This document shows positions 3,789 to 45,692 of a DNA stretch of 64,000 nt, in pieces. The stretch lies in the NCBI GenBank assembly GCA_049297395.1, contig JBAQUG010000455.1, positions 16 to 64,015 of the forward strand. The letters run 5' to 3'. Under the pieces are notes generated by a model. That model searched no databases, was not told where the DNA came from, and saw only the letters and a list, made by a program, of their open reading frames with translations. Numbering within the stretch: position 1 is the first letter of the stretch; each line of letters opens with the position of its first letter. The stretch comes from Victivallales bacterium (GTDB lineage Bacteria > Verrucomicrobiota > Lentisphaeria > Victivallales > GWF2-50-93). The position numbers were made by a program, and so were the translations under genes.

Positions 3789-3828
3789 CATTGCAGTTGT
3801 CAAAAGATTTTCGCGCTTCGCGAAAATC

Positions 3829-6438
3829 TTACCGCATCAGCCTTTCCGCTGCGTCAGCCTTTATCCAGCCTTCCGAACCGTTGCCTGTCCGGACTCGGAG
3901 CCAGTTGTCCCTTTCCTCCTCGATGAAGAGCTTCTCGCCGCAGTTGATCCGGAAGTCGGTCTGCTTGGAAGTTTCCGAAGGCAGGAGATATACCTGCATG
4001 TTCTTGATGACGGCGTAGGCTGTCTTTGGACTATATGAACTTGCCGACTGGCTTATCGGAGCGATCAGCAGCAGCACGAAGACGATGCCTGCCGCTGAAA
4101 TGCTTGTGTAGAATCTGGCTTCTGATGCAAACCTGCGGCGGAGCGCGAGGATTATTCCTGCAAAGGCCCAGACTATGGCGGCGATGAACATCCACTCGTC
4201 CGGACGCAGCAGGTCCCTGGCAAATGTGACGAGATCCTTTGGCGATTCAATGTCACCTATCTCAGGAAGCATGAATTTCCTGTGGACCAGGTTCAGGTTC
4301 TCCCTGATGTCGGAATCCCTAGGTGAAAGATGAAGCGCCCGCTCATACATTACCAGCGCCTTTGCGGGTTCTCCTAGCTGGTAGAGGCAGTTCCCGAGGT
4401 TGTAGAGCAGGGCGGGATCAGGAGCGGTCATGTCGAGCTGCTTCCGGTAGAATTCAGCCACCTTTATGAATTCCCCGTGGTTGTAGGCTGTCAACGGGTT
4501 GAACTGCCGAGCCGTCTCGGTTTCTGCTGGAAGTGCAAGAGGAAGCACGAAAAGGACAAGCAGCATCGAAAATTTCTTCAGTGATGCCAGCAGGGAACTG
4601 CGGAGCTCTGACTTGTTGGAGCCATGTGCTCCTGGCATATAGGCGGAATCGGCTCCCGCCTTCAGCAGCGAAGCCAGTTCGTTGTCGTCTATTTTTCCTG
4701 CGAGTTCGCCTGCGGAGGTCCCGGGAGGCAGGCCCTTGAGGTCGTTCAGGTATGGGACGACTTTATTCTGGATCAATGCGTTCAGTTTCCCAGGATCTGA
4801 TTTGCGGATTTCGCGGAGGAGATTGTTCTTGCCGGAAATCGCCTTTATTTTCCTGCGCAGCGCCGGATCGTTTTCCAGGCGCAGCCTCCTGAAGTGGCTG
4901 AATTCGCTGAATCCCCATAGGGCTGGGCCGAGGATGGACAGCAGGAGGACCAGGATGACATGGTTTTTCCATAATGGAAGAACTACCTGCCCGGAAAGAT
5001 TCTTCTTGAGATAGAGGATGTCGTTTATCTTTTTGCCATTGGCCTTCTTGTCCATGAACGTAGGTACAGGGACCGGACTGCCGGAATCGGACACGACCGG
5101 CGCCTGCGGATTGTCCGATTTCTCGATCTTCATTTTACGGCTGAAGGGGACTTCTGCATATTTTCCGGAGGCTGTGGAGAAATAGGATACCGGAAGATTG
5201 ATTTCCGTGCTGCCTTCCTGCAGGGGGATCATTACATACCTGACTTCGAACGAGTCGGTAGTCGATGAAGGAGACTTCTTTATTTCCGGTGGATAGACGC
5301 GGAATCCATCCAGTCTGAACTCAGGTGCCTTGAGGGTATCGAGGGTCCCATCGCCGGAACCGCTTATCTTCAAGGTCGCAGGTTCGCCGGTCTTGAGATT
5401 TTCCTGGCTTATTTCCGTCCGGATCTTCCAGTTCCCGATAAGCCCCAGATAATTGACTGTTCCTGCAGGGGCCGGAAGCGATAACGCTTCAAGTTCAGGA
5501 AATGCGCAGGTCAGGTTCTGCTCCGCCTGCCTGTAGTTCGCGAAGGGGCTTGCGAACATATCTTCAAACGGATCGCTGGAACGGTTGCCCCGCCTGTTGT
5601 CGTTCGGGATCTTCACTATGCATGCGATATTCACCTTGCCGGACATTTTTCCGGCTGCTATCGGACGGAACGCCGAACGGAAGGTGTACACATTGAAGAT
5701 CTGTCCGTTGAGTTTCTCATTGGATGTCTGCGCTGAAGCGAAATGGGCGTTCTGCGGATTTGTCGGACTGAAATCGTGGAATGCCACGTTTTCCATGCTG
5801 ATCTCCGGCCAGCTCCTTATGTCGAAGTTAAGCCCGCGAACGCCGAAGACTTTTATTTCAAACGATATTTCCTCTCCTACGTATATGCTTTTCCTGTCGG
5901 TCAGAAGTGAGCATTTCGCAAAGAGGATTTCATCAAGTCCGGCATTCTTCTTTTCTGTTTTGCCGTCATTGGAACTTACCGTGTATTTCCTGGTCATGAC
6001 CTTGAACGCCACGGGATCTGTCAATGTCTTTTTTTTGCCGCACTGGATTTTCAGGGCAGGTAGCTTAAGCTCACCCTCCTTCCCGGGAACGAACTCGTAA
6101 ACAGCTATATAGGTGGATGCCCTTTTGAAATTTATGATTGATGTCTGCATGCTTTTTGAGACTCCCTGATGCCAAGATATACCTTCGACTTTCGGGAACT
6201 CGGTCACTTCTGGATAGTCTTCAGAGGAGACAAGCTGGAGCTGCACGGGTTCGCCGACCATGGCCGGCTGCGGGGCTATTGTCATGTTTATGTCGCCTGC
6301 GGAAAAAACCTGGAGCGAAAAGAAGAGAAGAAAAGACAAGACAAGAAGCGAAGCCGCCCGGCCCGACAGGGCATGAACCGTATTATTGAAATGTGAAATT
6401 GTCTTATTCATTGTATTCTTGGAACCTGTAAAGAGCAC
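3829..6438 (-). CDS. BatD-like protein fused to TPR, TM segments and a C-terminal SH3-like domain (BatD-BatE-like fusion)
   Basis: 869 aa. It has a signal/TM N-terminus, a long beta-rich BatD-like body, a central TM, a TPR-like stretch (YNLGNCLYQLGEPAKALVMYERALHLSPRD), 2 TMs and a C-terminal DNWLRVRTGNGSEGWIKADA segment. It lies directly downstream of the VWA gene. Start uncertain (GTG 6438 or ATG 6411). Confidence 0.65.
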   Translation of the reverse strand: MLFTGSKNTMNKTISHFNNTVHALSGRAASLLVLSFLLFFSLQVFSAGDINMTIAPQPAMVGEPVQLQLVSSEDYPEVTEFPKVEGISWHQGVSKSMQTSIINFKRASTYIAVYEFVPGKEGELKLPALKIQCGKKKTLTDPVAFKVMTRKYTVSSNDGKTEKKNAGLDEILFAKCSLLTDRKSIYVGEEISFEIKVFGVRGLNFDIRSWPEISMENVAFHDFSPTNPQNAHFASAQTSNEKLNGQIFNVYTFRSAFRPIAAGKMSGKVNIACIVKIPNDNRRGNRSSDPFEDMFASPFANYRQAEQNLTCAFPELEALSLPAPAGTVNYLGLIGNWKIRTEISQENLKTGEPATLKISGSGDGTLDTLKAPEFRLDGFRVYPPEIKKSPSSTTDSFEVRYVMIPLQEGSTEINLPVSYFSTASGKYAEVPFSRKMKIEKSDNPQAPVVSDSGSPVPVPTFMDKKANGKKINDILYLKKNLSGQVVLPLWKNHVILVLLLSILGPALWGFSEFSHFRRLRLENDPALRRKIKAISGKNNLLREIRKSDPGKLNALIQNKVVPYLNDLKGLPPGTSAGELAGKIDDNELASLLKAGADSAYMPGAHGSNKSELRSSLLASLKKFSMLLVLFVLPLALPAETETARQFNPLTAYNHGEFIKVAEFYRKQLDMTAPDPALLYNLGNCLYQLGEPAKALVMYERALHLSPRDSDIRENLNLVHRKFMLPEIGDIESPKDLVTFARDLLRPDEWMFIAAIVWAFAGIILALRRRFASEARFYTSISAAGIVFVLLLIAPISQSASSYSPKTAYAVIKNMQVYLLPSETSKQTDFRINCGEKLFIEEERDNWLRVRTGNGSEGWIKADAAERLMR

Positions 6439-8932: not shown

Positions 8933-10039
8933 ATGCATAAAATCAAGGTGAATCTGAAAGAACGTGGATATGACATACTCATAGACACGGGGATTGTCGG
9001 CAGTTCCCGGACCTTGAAAGATCATGTCGCAGGACGCAGATGCCTGGTCATAACCGACAGCAACGTCGCAAAAATCTATGGCCTGTCGGTCCTGAAGACT
9101 CTCAGGAATGCCGGCGCCGACGCTGAGATGATCTTCTTCAAGGCAGGTGAATCCTCGAAAAACCTGGAAACCTATGGAAAGCTCCTCAGGCAGTCTTGCC
9201 GTGCGGGACTTGACCGTTCATCCCTGATTGTCGCCCTCGGAGGAGGAGTTCCCGGCGATGTGGCCGGATTTGTCGCGGCAAGCTACATGAGGGGCATTGA
9301 TTTCATCCAGATTCCGACAACCCTTCTTGCCATGGTGGATTCGAGCGTAGGCGGAAAGACCGGCATTGATCTTCCCGAAGGCAAGAACCTCGTCGGCGCT
9401 TTCTGGCAGCCGAGCCTTGTCCTGATAGATCCCGCGGTTTTGACTACGCTCCCGAAACGCGAAATTCGCTGCGGGCTGGCGGAAGTCGTGAAGTACGGAA
9501 TCATAATGGATGGAAATTTTTTCTCGTTCCTGGAGAAAAATTTAAATGGGATAAGGAATATGGATCAGGGAACATACGGTAGGATAATCGCCAGGTGCTG
9601 CGAACTCAAGGCGAAAGTCGTATTTGCCGATGAACGCGAGACAAGCGGACTGCGCGCAATTCTGAACTACGGACACACTTTCGGTCATGCGGTCGAGACC
9701 GTCACGGAATACGGGAAGTACGCGCACGGCGAAGCGGTGTCAATCGGAATGTGCATGGCTGCGAATCTCGCAGCAGCCTGTAATGAATTTTCACCTGATA
9801 ATAAATTTGCGCTTGAGATGAAGGAGCGTCAAACTAAGCTGCTCAAGGCACTTGGTCTGCCGACTGCTCTCGACAGGGGGATAAAACCTGCGCAAATTTA
9901 TAAGGCCATGTTCAAGGACAAGAAAGTCTCGAAGGGAAAGCTGCGCCTGGTCTTGCCTGACCGCATTGGAAAAGTTTCCATCGTGAAAGACGTGAAACCG
10001 GAAGACGTGTTGAAGGCGATTGAAGCAGTTATCAATTGA
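8933..10039 (+). CDS. aroB: 3-dehydroquinate synthase
   Basis: GGGVPGDVAGFVAASYMRGIDFIQIPTTLLAMVDSSVGGKTGID and HTFGHAVE motifs. The ATG at 8933 has a GAGG 7 nt upstream; the track start at 8927 is TTG. Confidence 0.9.
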   Translation: MHKIKVNLKERGYDILIDTGIVGSSRTLKDHVAGRRCLVITDSNVAKIYGLSVLKTLRNAGADAEMIFFKAGESSKNLETYGKLLRQSCRAGLDRSSLIVALGGGVPGDVAGFVAASYMRGIDFIQIPTTLLAMVDSSVGGKTGIDLPEGKNLVGAFWQPSLVLIDPAVLTTLPKREIRCGLAEVVKYGIIMDGNFFSFLEKNLNGIRNMDQGTYGRIIARCCELKAKVVFADERETSGLRAILNYGHTFGHAVETVTEYGKYAHGEAVSIGMCMAANLAAACNEFSPDNKFALEMKERQTKLLKALGLPTALDRGIKPAQIYKAMFKDKKVSKGKLRLVLPDRIGKVSIVKDVKPEDVLKAIEAVIN

Positions 10040-34624: not shown

Positions 34625-34909
34625 ATGCAACTTATGGCCAACCACAAGACCAAGCTTGAACTCGCCTGGATAGGCAAGGAGAACCGGCCGAAGCTGGAGC
34701 CGAGAATCCTCATAGAGGAACCGGAAAAATCCTATCATGACGATTACAGCCTTGAGATCAAGAACCTCCCGATGAAAGCTCCTGAGCCGGAGATAGCCAA
34801 AGAAGACAGGGGTGTGAAAGGTGCAAGGACGAAAGAGGAAAGAAGAAAACTGGCGCCGGATCAATCTTCGTTATTCGACTGGTCAGAAGGAAAGGAAGGG
34901 AAACCGTGA
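34625..34909 (+). pseudogene. 94-aa stub carrying only the N-terminal signature of a type III-like Mod DNA methyltransferase
   Basis: KTKLELAWIGKENRPKLEPRILIEEPEKSYH is recognised as the conserved Mod N-terminus. No SAM-binding or (D/N)PPY motif follows. The stop overlaps the next gene's GTG (GTGA at 34906-09). Confidence 0.55.
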
Positions 34910-36165
34910 AGCGTAAAACCTCTATTGCACGTCCGGCGGCGTCTGTTTACGAGCGCATACGGAATATCCTGGATTCCGCCAGGAGCAACGTTGCCCGTTC
35001 GGTGAACACAACCCAGGTCGTCGCGAACTGGCTGATTGGGCGCGAGATCGTGGAGGAGGAACAGAATGGAAGTCGCCGTGCAGAATATGGTGAGAGATTG
35101 CTCCGAAATCTCGTAGCCCAGCTCCAGGAGGATTATGGTGCTGGGTATAGCCTTGCAAATTTAAAATTTTTCCGCAAGTTCTATTTGGAATATCCTCACT
35201 TATGCGATGGAACAAAAGGCTACGCAGTGCGTAGCCTTTTGGCTGACTCCATGTCGAAGGATGCCGATGGAAAAGGCTACGCACTGCGTAGCCAATCTGG
35301 AAGTTCTTCAAAAACAATTAGTTGCGAGAAAAATCACGCACTGCGTGATTTTCCTATTCCGAGTGCTTTTCCCGCTGCAGTTGGCTACGCAGCGAGTAGC
35401 CAATCATGGTTGCCGGGCCAGATTCATCCTAATCTTTCCTGGACCCATTACCGTACACTGCTGCGTGTTGACAAGGCTGAGATCAGAGCTTTTTACGAGA
35501 TAGAGGCGATCAAGAGCAGTTGGTCGGCGAGGGAACTGGAACGGCAGATCAACAGTCCTCTTTACGAGCGGCTGGCATTGAGCAAGGACAAGAAAGGCCT
35601 GATGCGGCTGGCGACAAAGGGGCATGAGGTTCAGAAACCGGCTGACGTATTCAAGGATCCGGTGGTCATAGAGTTCCTGGGGATGCCGGAGTCATCCAAG
35701 CTGGTCGAGACCGATCTGGAAACCGCCCTCATCAGCAACCTGCAGACTTTTCTGCTGGAGCTTGGCAAGGGATTTGCCTTTGTGTCCCGTCAGGAACGCC
35801 TTACCTTGGATGGCGACCACTTTTATATTGACCTGGTTTTCTACCACACCATCTTGAAGTGTTATGTAATCATTGACCTCAAGGCGGGAAAGCTGACGCA
35901 TCAGGATCTTGGACAGCTTCAGCTGTATGTGAACTACTACGACCGTGAACGCCGGACCAAGGGGGACGGGCCTACGCTCGGATTGATCCTGTGTGCGGAC
36001 AAGAATGATGCCGTGGTGCGGTACACACTGGGAGAAGACCAGCAGAAAACAATATTTGCCAGCCGCTACAAGCTCCATCTTCCCAGTGAGACCGAGCTAA
36101 AGAACGAACTGCGGCGCGAAGTTAGAGTGCTGTCAGCGCCAATGAAGAAGGGAGATGCGAAATGA
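34906..36165 (+). CDS. DUF1016 (YhcG-like) PD-(D/E)xK nuclease domain protein
   Basis: N-terminal VVANWLIGREIVEEEQNGSRRAEYGERLL...LKFFRKFYLEYP. Then LSWTHYRTLLRV, WSARELERQI, and a C-terminal nuclease core FYIDLVFYH...VIIDLKAGK. Confidence 0.85.
   Translation: MKRKTSIARPAASVYERIRNILDSARSNVARSVNTTQVVANWLIGREIVEEEQNGSRRAEYGERLLRNLVAQLQEDYGAGYSLANLKFFRKFYLEYPHLCDGTKGYAVRSLLADSMSKDADGKGYALRSQSGSSSKTISCEKNHALRDFPIPSAFPAAVGYAASSQSWLPGQIHPNLSWTHYRTLLRVDKAEIRAFYEIEAIKSSWSARELERQINSPLYERLALSKDKKGLMRLATKGHEVQKPADVFKDPVVIEFLGMPESSKLVETDLETALISNLQTFLLELGKGFAFVSRQERLTLDGDHFYIDLVFYHTILKCYVIIDLKAGKLTHQDLGQLQLYVNYYDRERRTKGDGPTLGLILCADKNDAVVRYTLGEDQQKTIFASRYKLHLPSETELKNELRREVRVLSAPMKKGDAK
35214..35401 (+). 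repeat. four in-frame DNA palindromes at 57/57/51-nt spacing inside the DUF1016 linker
   Basis: Palindromes: aaaaggctacgc-agt-gcgtagcctttt (35214-40); ggctacgc-act-gcgtagcc (35275-93); aaaatcacgc-act-gcgtgatttt (35330-52); ggctacgc-agc-gagtagcc (35383-401). They translate to KGYAVRS, KGYALRS, KNHALRD and VGYAASS. Confidence 0.9.
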
Positions 36166-38702
36166 ATCCTGTTGTCAACGTCATCGCCAACCGGCTGAGC
36201 CTCCGTCCTCCGCAACGCAATTCGTTGGAGATTCTTTCACGGCTCTGTGACATCATTCCTCTCGAAAAAGATGCGGACGTGGCGCGATCCCTGGAAACAA
36301 TCCGGGCGGAATTTCCGATGGTAACGGATTTCGAGCGGGATTTTCCGTCACTTTGCTTCGCCCTGGCGACAGGTGTGGGCAAGACGCGGCTAATGGGGGC
36401 GTTCATCTCCTATCTTTTCAAGGCCGAAGGCATGCGGCACTTCTTCGTGCTTGCGCCGAACCTGACCATATACAATATCTCTAAAATTACGAGCACGGAA
36501 ACACCCAAGGGGGCAGTGAAGACCAATGTTCCCCGTTTCCGCCGCCTGCAGGAATACCTTGGGCAGAGCTACTTTGAATACCTGTCGAAGCTTGACGATC
36601 TTGTCCTGCTCATGGATGAATCCCACCGTTACCGGGCATCGGCAGGCATGAGGGCTATCAGCGAGTTGAAACCTATCATAGGACTTGAGCTTACCGCTAC
36701 ACCGCAAATTGAGACCGGTGGACGCAACATTCCTTTCAATAACGTCATATACAGTTATCCGCTATCAAGCGCCATGGAGGATGGGTTCGTCAAGGAGCCC
36801 GCCGTAGCAACGCGTGAGAACTTCAACGTGAAGAGCTACGATGAAGACAGTTTGGAAAGGCTGAAGCTGGAGGACGGGGTTAGAATCCACGAGAACACAA
36901 AGGTCGAACTGGAAATATATGCACGCGAAAACGGCAAGTCTCTAGTAAAACCATTCATGTTGGTCATTGCCAGGGATACAGGCCACGCCAATGAGCTTGT
37001 GAAGATAATAGAAGATCTGGCGTTTTTTGAGGGTAGGTACAAGGGAAAGGTCATCCAAGTCCATTCGAAACAGACCGGCGAGGAGCGTGACGAGACTGTT
37101 GAACAGCTCATCAATGTAGAGAAATCAGACAACCCTACGGAAATAGTCATCCATGTGAACATGCTCAAAGAAGGTTGGGATGTAACGAATCTCTATACCA
37201 TCGTTCCTCTCCGGGCGGCTAACTCGCAGACGCTGGTCGAGCAATCCATCGGACGCGGTCTCCGGCTTCCTTACGGTAAACGCACGGGAGTGGGTGCGGT
37301 GGATCGGCTGACCATAGTATCCCATGACAAGTTCCAGGAGATTGTTGACTACGCCAACAGTCCTGACTCGATCATCCGAGGCGGAATGAAAGTGATTTAT
37401 GTCAGCGATGAGAAATCCAAGGTTGTTGTAGCTCAACCCCGGATAATGGAGCATATTACGGCTTCTGGTGAGTATAAGGCCAGCGGTGCCAAGCAGCAGC
37501 CCGTGCTGTTCAAGAGTCCGAAGGAGCAGGAAGCTGCGAGGGCTACGCTGGATGTCATACACAGGGAATTTGAAAGGCTGCCAAGTTCTGCGGATCTCGC
37601 AAAACCTGAAATTAGGAAGCAGATTGTCGAAAAAGTGAAAGAGAGTATTACTCCGGCACAGCAGGAAATCGAAGGCGTAGCTGAGAAAATTGATGTGGAA
37701 GGAATCGTATCAAAGACTATTAAACTTCATAATGAACTTTCTATTGATATCCCCCGTATCAGCATTCAGCCTAAAGGCGAAGTGTCACGCGGCTTCAGTG
37801 AGTTCAAACTCGATCTGTCGGGAGTGCGGCTTCAGCCTGTGGACAACGAAATTCTGATACAGGAGCTTCATCGCCGCGAACAGCATCGTCTATTGAGCGG
37901 AAGTGGTGTTGATACTGAAGAGCATCCTGAGGATTATCTCGTGAACGGACTCATTGACTTCAATGACATCTGCTATGACAATCATGCAAAACTGCTCTAC
38001 AAGCTTTCAAGTCAGACAGTGGCGCACTTGAGATCCTATCTGAAGAGTGAGGAGGAGGTTCTGAACGTGCTGCAGTATCACCAAAAGATGCTGGTAGATT
38101 TGATACATGCACAGATGCAGGAACACTATGAGGAGAAGGCCACCGGCTACGGGATTCATGTGAGCAAGGGCTTTACATCTCTACGACCCAGCAATTACTC
38201 GGCCCCTGCCGGGGAAGTTGAGCGGGACTTCCGAGCCCCGGTTTCCGATAGGCAGGAGATTCGGAAAATGTTATTTGTCGGATTCAGCAAATGCCTATAT
38301 CCGCTTCAGAAGTTCGATTCAGATACCGAAAGGAGATTTACGGTTATCTTGGAAAACGACAAGGAAGTCCTCAAGTGGTTCAAACCGCCCAAGGGAGTGT
38401 TCCAAATCCAATATGACAAGCGCAGCGGGGAGATGTACGAACCTGATTTTGTGCTTGAAACTAAAAAGGCCAAGTTCCTTTGTGAGATAAAAGCTGCAAA
38501 CGAGATGAATGACGGGCAAGTGCTGGCAAAGGCCAAGGCAGCGGCGGAATGGTGTACTCACGCCACAGCTCATGAGAAGGAGCATAAAGGCAAGCCGTGG
38601 ACTTGCTTGCTTATCCCACACGATGCGATTTCCGACAACAAGACGCTTCAAGGGCTGGCAGCGACATATACCCATGCTTTTGCACGCGGTGGCAAAAAGT
38701 GA
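36162..38702 (+). CDS. type III restriction enzyme Res subunit (SF2 helicase plus C-terminal PD-ExK nuclease)
   Basis: Walker A ALATGVGKTRLMG, DEAH-variant LLMDESHRY, LELTATP, QSIGRGLRLPYG, and a C-terminal EPDFVLE...FLCEIKA. The start overlaps the DUF1016 stop (ATGA). Confidence 0.85.
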   Translation: MNPVVNVIANRLSLRPPQRNSLEILSRLCDIIPLEKDADVARSLETIRAEFPMVTDFERDFPSLCFALATGVGKTRLMGAFISYLFKAEGMRHFFVLAPNLTIYNISKITSTETPKGAVKTNVPRFRRLQEYLGQSYFEYLSKLDDLVLLMDESHRYRASAGMRAISELKPIIGLELTATPQIETGGRNIPFNNVIYSYPLSSAMEDGFVKEPAVATRENFNVKSYDEDSLERLKLEDGVRIHENTKVELEIYARENGKSLVKPFMLVIARDTGHANELVKIIEDLAFFEGRYKGKVIQVHSKQTGEERDETVEQLINVEKSDNPTEIVIHVNMLKEGWDVTNLYTIVPLRAANSQTLVEQSIGRGLRLPYGKRTGVGAVDRLTIVSHDKFQEIVDYANSPDSIIRGGMKVIYVSDEKSKVVVAQPRIMEHITASGEYKASGAKQQPVLFKSPKEQEAARATLDVIHREFERLPSSADLAKPEIRKQIVEKVKESITPAQQEIEGVAEKIDVEGIVSKTIKLHNELSIDIPRISIQPKGEVSRGFSEFKLDLSGVRLQPVDNEILIQELHRREQHRLLSGSGVDTEEHPEDYLVNGLIDFNDICYDNHAKLLYKLSSQTVAHLRSYLKSEEEVLNVLQYHQKMLVDLIHAQMQEHYEEKATGYGIHVSKGFTSLRPSNYSAPAGEVERDFRAPVSDRQEIRKMLFVGFSKCLYPLQKFDSDTERRFTVILENDKEVLKWFKPPKGVFQIQYDKRSGEMYEPDFVLETKKAKFLCEIKAANEMNDGQVLAKAKAAAEWCTHATAHEKEHKGKPWTCLLIPHDAISDNKTLQGLAATYTHAFARGGKK

Positions 38703-45639: not shown

Positions 45640-45672
45640 AAAAAAAGAGCCTGCGAACTTCGCAGGCTCTTT
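45640..45672 (-). terminator. Rho-independent terminator for the 45693..46223 gene
   Basis: The minus strand reads aaagagcctgcg-aagtt-cgcaggctcttt followed by ttttt. Confidence 0.8.
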
Positions 45673-45692
45673 CTGATTGTATTAAAATATCC

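What the first reader, a model, noticed from the sequence alone, without database searches (positions are those of the whole stretch)
35214..35401. Four phase-locked DNA palindromes inside the DUF1016 coding sequence
Seen in sequence. Four palindromes with 8-12-bp arms and a 3-nt centre lie at 35214-40, 35275-93, 35330-52 and 35383-401. They are spaced 57, 57 and 51 nt apart, always in the same codon phase. They fall in the linker between the N-terminal helical domain (ends FYLEYP) and LSWTHYRTLLRV.

Three share the core ggctacgcNNNgcgtagcc. The third uses a different sequence (aatcacgcactgcgtgatt) but the same architecture. The peptides they encode (GYAVRS, GYALRS, NHALRD, GYAASS) are what self-complementary codons force.

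That pattern suggests selection on a DNA or RNA hairpin, or on a dimeric protein-binding site, rather than on the peptide. From memory (unverified), homologues carry Q-T-x-S repeats in this linker. Those would back-translate to CAGACA-N-TGTCTG, a different palindrome with the same design. Possible roles are autoregulatory operator sites, RNA processing or pausing hairpins, and recombination hot spots.
Basis: partly seen in the sequence, partly recalled or inferred. Interest (0 to 1): 0.7.

Follow-up and report, generated by a model that had tools for sequence, protein, structure and literature searches.

The report
Conserved DNA hairpins inside nuclease gene
The four palindromes are real copies of a 25-base hairpin-forming element found at the same spot in nearly every gene of a widespread, uncharacterised nuclease family (including E. 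coli K-12 yhcG), kept as a nucleic-acid structure and not for the peptide it encodes.

Summary
Four hairpin units (centres 35227, 35284, 35341, 35392) score 11, 9, 10 and 9 of 11 stem pairs. All sit in codon phase 0, spaced 57/57/51 nt, and they are the only such hairpins in the gene.

Synonymous-codon shuffles never reproduce them (39/44 pairs against 19.9±2.8; 0 of 5000). The same element, ATT-N8-(R-S-Y loop)-N8'-AAT, occurs in 171 of 212 distinct DUF1016/YhcG genes from many phyla, phages and plasmids. I found 105 different stem sequences with heavy compensatory change.

In 17 of 197 distinct units the same nucleotides are read in another frame. E. coli K-12 has two further copies in non-coding DNA. 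G·T pairs are not favoured, so the signal looks like DNA or strand-symmetric selection and not a sense-RNA hairpin.

In E. coli the units vary in copy number (1–3). They also sit exactly at the ends of an 8.3-kb present/absent segment, and the empty site keeps one copy.

My best reading, which is inferred, is a cis-acting hairpin or cruciform site for the gene's own structure-specific nuclease. I found no prior description.

The parts
34906..36165 (+). DUF1016/YhcG-family gene (419 aa). It has an N-terminal helical domain split by the linker, and a C-terminal PD-(D/E)XK nuclease domain.
   Evidence: Pfam PF17761 (residues 18-98 plus a second stretch) and PF06250 (residues 247-402). PADLOC PDC-S02. 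100% identical to a Victivallales MAG protein. The nuclease domain resembles NucS/EndoMS (Foldseek).
35215..35239 (.). Hairpin unit 1: AAAGGCTACGC agt GCGTAGCCTTT (11 of 11 pairs). The palindrome extends to 35213-35241. It encodes KGYAVRSL.
   Evidence: (I4). Covariance-model hit of 37.3 bits.
35272..35296 (.). Hairpin unit 2: AAAGGCTACGC act GCGTAGCCAAT (9 of 11 pairs). It encodes KGYALRSQ. It is a perfect 23-nt inverted copy of unit 1.
   Evidence: (I1).
35329..35353 (.). Hairpin unit 3: AAAAATCACGC act GCGTGATTTTC (10 of 11 pairs). It has a different middle stem but the same ACGC/GCGT top. It encodes KNHALRDF.
   Evidence: (I5). 28.4 bits.
35380..35404 (.). Hairpin unit 4: GTTGGCTACGC agc GAGTAGCCAAT (9 of 11 pairs). 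This is the last unit. It encodes VGYAASSQ and is followed by SW.
   Evidence: 25.0 bits.
34625..34909 (+). Context: remnant of the type III methyltransferase (mod) gene. Only the N-terminal ~40 aa and C-terminal ~50 aa are present, fused together.
   Evidence: PADLOC MTase_III match to residues 7-44 only. In homologous loci the two pieces lie about 1.45 kb apart.
36162..38702 (+). Context: type III restriction subunit (res). Its start overlaps the DUF1016 stop codon.
   Evidence: Pfam ResIII/Helicase_C. PADLOC REase_III E = 5e-200. At least 30 of 80 homologous loci show the same mod-DUF1016-res order.

Best explanation
Each palindrome is one copy of a family-wide 25-nt element, 5'-ATT(or AAA)-N8-[R-S-Y]-N8'-AAT(or TTT)-3'. 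It folds into an 11-12-bp stem with a 3-nt loop. It is an ancestral part of DUF1016/YhcG genes, sitting in a disordered loop of the N-terminal domain just before the (L)SW[ST]HY helix. In this subfamily it has been amplified in frame to arrays of 1-6 or more units.

I propose that it acts at the DNA level, as a hairpin or cruciform-forming cis site recognised by the gene's own product. That product is a PD-(D/E)XK nuclease of the NucS / Holliday-junction-resolvase-like type.

Under this model:
- The constant features are the recognition points: the A:T, T:A, T:A base of the stem, A:T at position 5, the C:G pair closing the loop, and the R-S-Y loop.
- The other stem positions only need to pair.
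- Placing the site inside the ORF keeps the site and the enzyme together during horizontal transfer, as with the lambda origin inside gene O or the pT181 origin inside repC.
- Binding or cutting would then give autoregulation and/or local recombination.

Shown here: the element, its covariation, its independence of reading frame, its confinement to these genes, and its association with recombination.

Inferred, not shown: that the DUF1016 protein is the partner, that the active form is DNA, and what the biological outcome is.
For: Nucleic-acid element, not a peptide
- In 139 units of the window's subfamily, pairs at distances 6-9 from the centre are 68-87% Watson-Crick against 29-42% expected (mutual information 0.7-1.1 bits).
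- In 28 'last units' taken family-wide, distances 3-9 are 75-100% Watson-Crick (93-100% except distance 9) against 34-41% expected.
- On 97 units, 13 of 14 pairs show double-sided change. The covariation score is 0.665 against 0.169 in shuffles and 0.06-0.15 in slid controls.
- Of the 197 distinct units, 17 are read in phase 1 or 2, giving unrelated peptides such as EFARQCLTN.
- Non-coding copies exist, and one shows a compensatory G:C to C:G change between E. coli strains.

Sequence-specific and symmetric constraint on top of pairing
- ACGC/GCGT is 92-97% invariant, and Arg is almost always CGT.
- The ATT/AAT ends, C:G closing pair and R-S-Y loop hold across subfamilies.

DNA-like signature
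- Among single mismatches, G:T = 18, A:C = 39, other = 43.
- In the window's subfamily the counts are 34, 55 and 95.
- Both strands fold equally well.

The gene itself is the only constant partner
- The element is found with type III R-M operons, integrases, resolvases, tra genes or no conserved neighbour, and across many phyla, phages and plasmids.
- It is confined to the gene: 1.6 per kb inside the canonical region against 0.057 per kb outside.
- E. coli genomes hold at most 6 matches.

The nuclease domain is related to structure-specific enzymes
- Foldseek matches NucS/EndoMS structures 2vld and 5gke.
- A published analysis places it near YraN and archaeal Holliday-junction resolvases (PMC1189080).

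Recombinogenic behaviour
- E. coli alleles of 349, 362 and 375 aa carry 1, 2 and 3 units.
- Family hairpins lie at both ends of the 8.3-kb gltF-yhcG segment. Genomes lacking the segment (946 of 5426 match the empty-site junction query over at least 80% of its length) have one hairpin there in the two inspected, and homology breaks exactly at the hairpin edge.
- In L030 the gene is bracketed by hairpins.
Against: - There is no evidence that DUF1016 proteins bind or cut this element. The N-terminal domain has no recognisable nucleic-acid-binding fold, and the structure model is only moderate (pLDDT 59.8).
- Most genes have a single internal copy and no flanking copies. The E. coli island pattern may therefore be a local accident, such as deletion between two repeats.
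- Four DUF1016-less mod-res operons show no solitary 'empty-site' hairpin.
- The lack of G·T tolerance could partly reflect codon constraints.
- An 11-bp-arm cruciform needs substantial negative supercoiling to extrude.
- Arm symmetry could be kept by quasi-palindrome template switching and not by selection for pairing.
Confidence: 0.4

Rival explanations
1. The hairpins work in the mRNA. They would act as cis structures controlling translation, decay or processing of the DUF1016 message. In mod-DUF1016-res operons they could set the ratio of upstream mod to downstream res. Alternatively they are an RNA operator bound by the protein, giving translational autoregulation in the manner of rnc, rne or type III toxin-antitoxin systems.
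For: - The linker RNA folds far better than shuffled controls (z = -5.7).
- AAA...TTT-type first units look like weak intrinsic terminators.
- Extra copies lie in the 5' UTR or at the start codon (L030, L218), and 16 nt after the yhcG stop codon in E. coli, positions typical of mRNA elements.
- The gene sits between mod and res with overlapping start and stop codons.
Against: - G·U-equivalent pairs are not enriched. There are fewer G:T than A:C mismatches (18 against 39, and 34 against 55), which is unusual for a selected RNA helix.
- The loop and the constant positions are strand-symmetric.
- No U-tract follows the common ATT...AAT form.
- No Rfam family matches.
- Solitary genes such as E. 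coli yhcG carry the element as well, so operon tuning cannot be the ancestral role.
- This reading does not explain the element at indel boundaries.
Confidence: 0.25
2. The element is a tolerated or selfish mini-palindrome with no function for the gene. It sits in a disordered loop where any peptide is accepted. It duplicates by slippage. Its arms are kept complementary by quasi-palindrome (template-switch) correction and not by selection.
For: - The linker has pLDDT 30-44 and no predicted secondary structure.
- Unit number varies from 1 to at least 6 between homologues and from 1 to 3 within E. coli.
- Identical 25-mers occur inside yhcG and downstream of gltD, which points to copying.
- The ±1 positions do not covary.
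Against: - A neutral passenger should have been lost or moved. Instead one copy sits at the same position, ending 6 nt before the W codon, in genes from Proteobacteria, Actinobacteria, Bacteroidota, PVC, Cyanobacteria, phages and plasmids.
- Sequence-specific invariant positions (ATT/AAT, A5, C2, R-S-Y) are kept across subfamilies and across reading frames.
- It does not spread through genomes.
Confidence: 0.15
3. The palindromes are sites for a separate site-specific recombinase, such as a neighbouring integrase, resolvase or invertase. They would mediate inversion, deletion or integration at the locus.
For: - Tyrosine integrases or a serine recombinase lie immediately upstream, overlapping the DUF1016 start, in several plasmid and prophage loci.
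- DUF1016 genes are enriched next to targets of programmed inversion (PMC9881135).
- The hairpins sit at indel boundaries in E. coli.
Against: - Most loci, including this window and E. coli yhcG, have no recombinase nearby.
- A 1-3-nt centre is too short for known tyrosine (6-8 bp) or serine (2 bp, even-numbered) crossover regions.
- Covarying arms are not expected for recombinase-binding arms.
- The frame that an inversion between units would create is open in only 72% of spacers, against 58% and 49% for the other antisense frames.
Confidence: 0.07
4. The repeats are a functional peptide motif (x-[Y/H/D]-A-x-R-x), and the palindromy is a by-product of that motif.
For: A recurring peptide pattern is visible in 120 homologues.
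Against: - The residue couplings (Y with S/K, H with G/D/E, D with R/Q) follow base complementarity, not chemistry.
- Codon choice is fixed, with CGT and GCA/GCG.
- Other subfamilies encode unrelated peptides from the same design, such as IVQTLSAQ, IVVSLIRQ and IGQQAVDQ.
- Copies exist in shifted frames and in non-coding DNA.
Confidence: 0.02

Closest known systems
Lambda origin iterons inside gene O (likewise the pT181 origin inside repC and the phiX174 origin inside gene A). From established knowledge, not tested here.
   Same: An array of dyad-symmetric cis sites lies within the coding sequence of a protein, in lambda in the inter-domain linker. This guarantees that site and protein are inherited together. 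The number of sites varies between relatives.
   Different: - Iterons are conserved protein-binding sequences whose arms do not covary freely.
- Those proteins are replication initiators.
- Here the stems differ between units of one gene, the protein is a PD-(D/E)XK nuclease, and no binding has been shown.
REP/REPIN elements and their RAYT transposases
   Same: Both are short palindromic hairpins with conserved ends and covarying stems. Each type is tied to one nuclease or transposase gene, and copies sometimes flank that gene.
   Different: - REPs are extragenic and dispersed in tens to hundreds of copies, and RAYTs are HUH enzymes.
- Here copies are intragenic and in frame, and E. coli genomes hold at most 6.
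- There are none elsewhere in the window.
- The associated enzyme is PD-(D/E)XK.
Integron attC sites
   Same: The structure is conserved more than the sequence, with short conserved ends. They are recombinogenic. In E. coli one copy sits just after the stop codon of the gene.
   Different: - attC sites are 57-141 nt long and imperfect, with extrahelical bases, and are recognised by IntI on one strand.
- Here the element is a perfect 25 nt, it is strand-symmetric, no integron integrase is present, and most copies lie inside the ORF.
Type III toxin-antitoxin RNA repeats (ToxI/ToxN)
   Same: Both are tandem repeat arrays physically linked to a nuclease gene in defence contexts.
   Different: - ToxI consists of non-coding direct repeats upstream of the toxin, processed by an RNase.
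- Here the repeats are palindromes inside the ORF, most genes have a single copy, there is no G·U signature, and the nuclease has a DNA-type fold.
CRISPR arrays
   Same: Both have palindromic repeats at regular spacing (39-57 nt centre to centre).
   Different: - Repeats within one array here differ from each other through compensatory changes.
- The 'spacers' are translated in frame.
- No leader or cas genes are present.
- Most family members have only one unit.

Membership tests
DUF1016 / YhcG (COG4804, PADLOC PDC-S02) protein family (the host gene) | DUF1016_N plus YhcG_C PD-(D/E)XK domains scoring above the curated thresholds | tested here: met
   PF17761 scores 123 bits and PF06250 scores 193 bits. 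PDC-S02 has E = 4e-138.
REP / REPIN | Many dispersed, mainly extragenic copies per genome | tested here: not met
   There are no other copies in the 64-kb window. In homologous loci there are 111 core hits in 10.4 kb of linker against 15 in 408 kb outside. E. coli genomes have a median of 3 and a maximum of 6 matches.
REP / REPIN | An associated RAYT (HUH, IS200-like) gene | tested here: not met
   The only constantly associated gene is a PD-(D/E)XK nuclease.
Intrinsic terminator | GC-rich stem followed directly by a U-tract | tested here: inconclusive
   Unit 1 (+ strand) and unit 2 (- strand) are followed by TTTT, and the scan flags only unit 2 on the minus strand. The common ATT...AAT form in the family has no T-run.
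CRISPR array | Near-identical repeats separated by unique non-coding spacers, with a leader and/or cas genes | tested here: not met
   The repeats differ in the middle of the stem. The array is translated in frame. No cas genes were found among the neighbours examined.
Any Rfam RNA family | Score at or above the family's gathering threshold | tested here: not met
   Only sub-threshold generic hairpin matches were found (mir-5856 at 40 against 90 bits; mir-266 at 21 against 80 bits).
Structured RNA element (generic) | Compensatory changes with G·U tolerated more than A·C | tested here: not met
   Compensation is strong. However, G:T mismatches are fewer than A:C mismatches: 18 against 39, and 34 against 55.
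Initiator-gene-embedded origin (lambda O / pT181 repC type) | The protein encoded by the gene binds or nicks the embedded sites | not testable with these tools
   This needs EMSA, footprinting or cleavage assays. Only the architecture is shared.
Integron attC | An imperfect 57-141-nt hairpin with extrahelical bases and R/L boxes, plus a nearby IntI | tested here: not met
   The units are 25 nt long, 97 of 197 are perfect, and no integron integrase was found.
Type III restriction-modification operon (context) | Intact mod plus res genes | tested here: not met
   res is full length, but mod is reduced to 94 aa by an internal deletion.

The most novel reading that the evidence does not exclude
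DUF1016/YhcG nucleases and their 25-nt hairpins may form a previously unrecognised, self-contained DNA-transaction module. In it, a PD-(D/E)XK structure-specific nuclease acts on hairpin or cruciform sites carried inside, and sometimes flanking, its own gene. The logic resembles REP-RAYT or integron attC systems but uses different chemistry. The module would drive insertion, deletion or rearrangement of adjacent DNA, such as the 8.3-kb gltF-yhcG segment of E. coli. It could also account for the family's scatter through R-M operons, plasmids and prophages.
Probability: 0.15. Interest if true: 0.92.

Novelty: new variant of a known kind. Interest (0 to 1): 0.82.

Why it matters
DUF1016/YhcG is a very common, uncharacterised nuclease family. 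It lies in defence islands, R-M operons, plasmids and prophages, and PADLOC lists it as the candidate defence system PDC-S02.

A frame-independent, covarying hairpin at a fixed place in nearly every member is a concrete handle on what these proteins recognise. Because E. coli K-12 yhcG carries three internal copies and two flanking copies, the idea can be tested at once with standard genetics and biochemistry.

The finding also shows that disordered 'linker repeats' in proteins can be the translated shadow of a DNA element. This matters for annotation and for interpreting low-complexity protein regions.

Tried and rejected
- **Peptide-motif reading.** Rejected because of couplings that follow base complementarity, fixed codon choice, and copies in shifted frames and in non-coding DNA.
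- **REP-like dispersed repeat.** Rejected.
- **In-frame inversion between units.** The post-inversion frame is open in only 72% of 88 spacers, against 58% and 49% for the other antisense frames. This gives no real support.
- **'Empty-site' hairpin at mod-res junctions.** Four type III operons without DUF1016 (Salmonella, Roseomonas, Sphingopyxis, Deinococcus) have none.
- **Rfam.** Scans of the window region and of E. coli yhcG found nothing above threshold.
- **Literature.** Searches for DUF1016, YhcG, COG4804, PDC-S02, and YhcG with palindrome/hairpin terms found no description of the element.
- **First AlphaFold run** on a shallow alignment was unusable (pLDDT 44).
- **Second AlphaFold run** reached pLDDT 59.8. 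Its Foldseek search was informative only for the nuclease domain and said nothing about the N-terminal domain.
- **PDB sequence search.** No hits.
- **DNA of the closest homologue** (P0002, 88% identity) was not available. A close-pair substitution analysis of this exact gene was therefore not possible.
- **Anchor-defined, pairing-blind extraction of the last unit.** It worked for single-unit subfamilies but mis-registered the window's subfamily, which has a 'W-x-PG-x-LHPN' insertion before LSWTHY.
Full report
**What is in the window**

The gene at 34906-36165 (+) encodes a 419-aa DUF1016_N + YhcG_C PD-(D/E)XK protein. It is 100% identical to a protein of a Victivallales MAG.

Between FYLEYP and LSWTHY lie four palindromic units centred at 35227, 35284, 35341 and 35392. 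They have 11, 9, 10 and 9 of 11 possible stem pairs, counted at distances 2-12 from the centre. All centres fall on the first base of a codon, and the spacing is 57, 57 and 51 nt.

- These are the only such centres in the gene.
- Shuffling synonymous codons gives 19.9±2.8 of 44 pairs against 39 observed. None of 5000 shuffles yields four hairpins.
- The shared core occurs nowhere else in the 64-kb window.
- The window has 19 generic hairpins with at least 9 of 11 pairs, against about 8 in shuffled sequence. Four of them are packed into these 166 nt.
- The segment folds with z = -5.7 on either strand. Units 1 and 2 are also perfect 23-nt complements of each other.

**Homologues of the same subfamily**

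I listed 120 protein homologues (65-88% identity, 364-474 aa). They differ mainly in the length of this linker, which is built of x-[Y/H/D/N]-A-x-R-x motifs.

Eighty genomic loci from Planctomycetota, Verrucomicrobiota, Nitrospirota, Cyanobacteria, Elusimicrobiota, Bacteroidota, Deltaproteobacteria and others gave the DNA.

- Their linkers hold 144 units with the core ACGC-N3-GCGT, and 141 of these are in phase 0.
- There are 111 exact core hits in 10.4 kb of linker against 15 in 408 kb outside. One of the outside hits (L006) lies in a second DUF1016 fragment and two (L024, L030) fall within the stop-to-stop DUF1016 ORF outside my linker bounds, one of them upstream of the start codon; most of the rest lie in flanking DNA.
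- Pair statistics on 139 distinct units are as follows:

| Distance from centre | Behaviour |
|---|---|
| 1 | Does not covary (63% against 59% expected), so it belongs to the loop |
| 2-5 | Nearly invariant |
| 6-9 | 68-87% Watson-Crick against 29-42% expected, three or four pair types each, mutual information 0.7-1.1 bits |
| 10-11 | T:A or A:T |
| 12 | A:T in 93% |
| 13 and beyond | Random |

The element is therefore an 11-12-bp stem with a 3-nt loop.

**The whole family**

E. coli K-12 yhcG has three units, all in phase 0 and 39 nt apart:
- ATTCACCAGACaatGTCTGGCGAAT
- ATTCCGCAGACaccGTCTGCAGAAT
- ATTTGGCAGACgctGTCTGCCAAAT

Further genes came from plasmids, 80 viral contigs and 80 metagenome contigs. 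The plasmid hosts were Paracaedimonas, Hymenobacter, Burkholderia, Klebsiella, Rhodococcus, Curtobacterium, Legionella, Rickettsia and Sulfurimonas. They show the same design with quite different stems. Examples are ATTGTCGTATCactGATACGACAAT, ATTGGTCAACAagcTGTTGACCAAT, ATTGCGTCCGCactGCGGACGCAAT and ATTATGCCACAgtcTGTGGCACAAT.

Over 212 distinct genes:
- 171 genes have at least one hairpin with 10 or more of 11 pairs in the canonical region.
- 245 of all 295 such hairpins in 1.03 Mb lie in that region. That is 1.6 per kb against 0.057 per kb elsewhere.
- Of 197 distinct units, 97 are perfect, and there are 105 different upper stems.
- The loop is R-S-Y.
- The ends are ATT/AAT in 144-146 of the 197 distinct units and AAA/TTT in 30-31.

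In single-unit genes the element ends exactly 6 nt before the Trp codon of (L)SW[ST]HY.

On 97 units, 13 of 14 proposed pairs show double-sided change. The covariation score is 0.665, against 0.169 in shuffles (0 of 500 reach it) and 0.06-0.15 when the partner columns are slid. One caveat applies: these units were picked for pairing at distances 2-12. The percentage paired is therefore circular, but the diversity of pair types is not.

**It is not the peptide**

- Seventeen of the 197 distinct units keep the same nucleotide element, at the same place, but read in phase 1 or 2. The peptides are then unrelated, for example EFARQCLTN and KFVRRCLTN.
- Copies also occur in a 5' UTR (L030), at N-terminal codons (L206, L177), in a C-terminal tail (L030), and in non-coding DNA.

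**DNA or RNA?**

Among 100 units with a single mismatch, G:T = 18, A:C = 39 and other = 43. In the window's subfamily the counts are 34, 55 and 95. A selected sense-RNA helix would normally tolerate G·U far better than A·C.

The constant positions and the R-S-Y loop are also symmetric under reverse complement. I therefore favour a DNA-level or strand-symmetric element. Codon constraints could bias these counts, so this is not proof.

**E. coli population data**

- YhcG alleles of 349, 362 and 375 aa carry one, two and three units. Some one-unit alleles look like a fusion of unit 1's left arm with unit 3's right arm.
- K-12 has two further perfect family hairpins outside the gene. One is ATTCGCCAGACtgtGTCTGGCGAAT, 15 nt after the gltD stop codon. 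The other is ATTCTGCAGACagtGTCTGCAGAAT, 16 nt after the yhcG stop codon.
- These two bracket the 8.3-kb segment gltF-yhcADEF-yhcG.
- In 946 of 5426 genomes the empty-site junction query matches over at least 80% of its length, so gltD and nanQ are adjacent; the two such strains I inspected (L255, L256) carry exactly one hairpin between them. That hairpin is identical to internal unit 1 of O157-type yhcG. BLAST homology between the two configurations ends at the last base of the hairpin.
- The hairpin downstream of yhcG shows a loop flip (agt to act) in O157. In another strain it shows a compensatory G:C to C:G change with otherwise identical flanks.
- Matches to the element number a median of 3 and at most 6 per E. 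coli genome, so it is not a dispersed repeat.

**Context**

At least 30 of the 80 subfamily loci have the order mod-DUF1016-res, with abutting or overlapping genes. In the window, mod is reduced to a 94-aa fusion of its two ends.

Elsewhere the gene follows integrases or a resolvase, sits between traW and traU, or stands alone. The only constant companion of the hairpin is therefore the DUF1016 gene itself.

PADLOC lists the family as candidate defence system PDC-S02. The nuclease domain resembles NucS/EndoMS. It was earlier placed near YraN and archaeal Holliday-junction resolvases (PMC1189080). The linker is predicted to be disordered (pLDDT 30-44), in a model of only moderate quality.

**Interpretation**

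What is shown:
- A conserved nucleic-acid hairpin element.
- Both pairing constraints and symmetric sequence-specific constraints on it.
- Confinement to one gene family.
- A clear association with recombination.

What I infer (confidence 0.4): it is the cognate cis site of the family's own structure-specific nuclease, most likely as a DNA hairpin or cruciform. It is embedded in the ORF so that site and enzyme travel together. The architecture is that of the lambda origin in gene O or the pT181 origin in repC. The behaviour in E. coli is reminiscent of REP-RAYT or attC systems. The outcome could be autoregulation, local recombination or mobility, and I cannot choose between these.

Rivals:
- An mRNA-level element (0.25).
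- A tolerated palindrome maintained by template switching (0.15).
- A site for a separate recombinase (0.07).
- A peptide motif (0.02).

**Prior knowledge**

I found no description of this element in Rfam or in the searchable literature. It is not annotated in the K-12 record.

Noticed in passing
window 34625-34909: The type III methyltransferase gene upstream of DUF1016 is an in-frame remnant. Residues about 4-38 and 39-85 are adjacent here, but about 1.45 kb apart in homologous mod-DUF1016-res operons. The window's R-M system therefore lacks a functional Mod, while Res looks intact.
   Followed up: partly
L081 (E. coli K-12) 633-657 and 8971-8995; L255/L256 empty site: Family-type hairpins lie in non-coding DNA at both ends of the 8.3-kb gltF-yhcADEF-yhcG segment. 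Strains lacking the segment keep exactly one hairpin between gltD and nanQ, and homology breaks at the hairpin edge. This looks like insertion or excision at the hairpin, or deletion between two copies.
   Followed up: partly
E. coli YhcG proteins P0122-P0157: Alleles of 349, 362 and 375 aa carry 1, 2 and 3 hairpin units of 39 nt each. The K-12-type allele also has Arg in place of the family-invariant Trp (PLPRSTY against PLPWSTY), so K-12 yhcG may be defective.
   Followed up: partly
L086, L137-L147, L247 (integrase-linked subfamily), codons about 11-19 of the gene: A second, different conserved palindrome, CC(N)GCAGCGCC-nnn-GGCGCTGCTGG (peptide PAAPxALLG), lies near the 5' end of DUF1016 genes that sit directly downstream of, and overlap, a P4-type integrase gene.
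   Followed up: no
window 35218-35240 with 35271-35293: Units 1 and 2 are perfect 23-nt reverse complements, including the loop (AGT against ACT). The RNA or ssDNA can therefore form one long 23-bp stem with a 30-nt loop instead of two local hairpins. The minimum-free-energy fold prefers this.
   Followed up: partly
window 34922-35317 (- strand): A 131-aa antisense ORF reads the palindromes as the mirror peptides GYAVRS and GYALRS. This is probably a by-product of the palindromes and not a gene.
   Followed up: no
L251 (Sulfurimonas), L249 (Legionella), L084, L086 and L247: DUF1016 genes often lie immediately downstream of site-specific recombinase genes (tyrosine integrase or serine resolvase next to a Tn3 transposase), frequently with overlapping stop and start codons.
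   Followed up: no
L236 about 1020-1330; L058 about 4560-4660; L006 about 1160-1745: Orphan hairpin units and DUF1016 N-terminal or linker fragments lie next to intact DUF1016 genes. This suggests repeated replacement or decay of these genes at the same locus.
   Followed up: no
window 45643-45673 and 3804-3830: Two unrelated perfect 11-bp/3-nt-loop hairpins (AGAGCCTGCGAactTCGCAGGCTCT and AGATTTTCGCGcttCGCGAAAATCT). They are probably ordinary terminators and are not of the ATT...AAT family.
   Followed up: no
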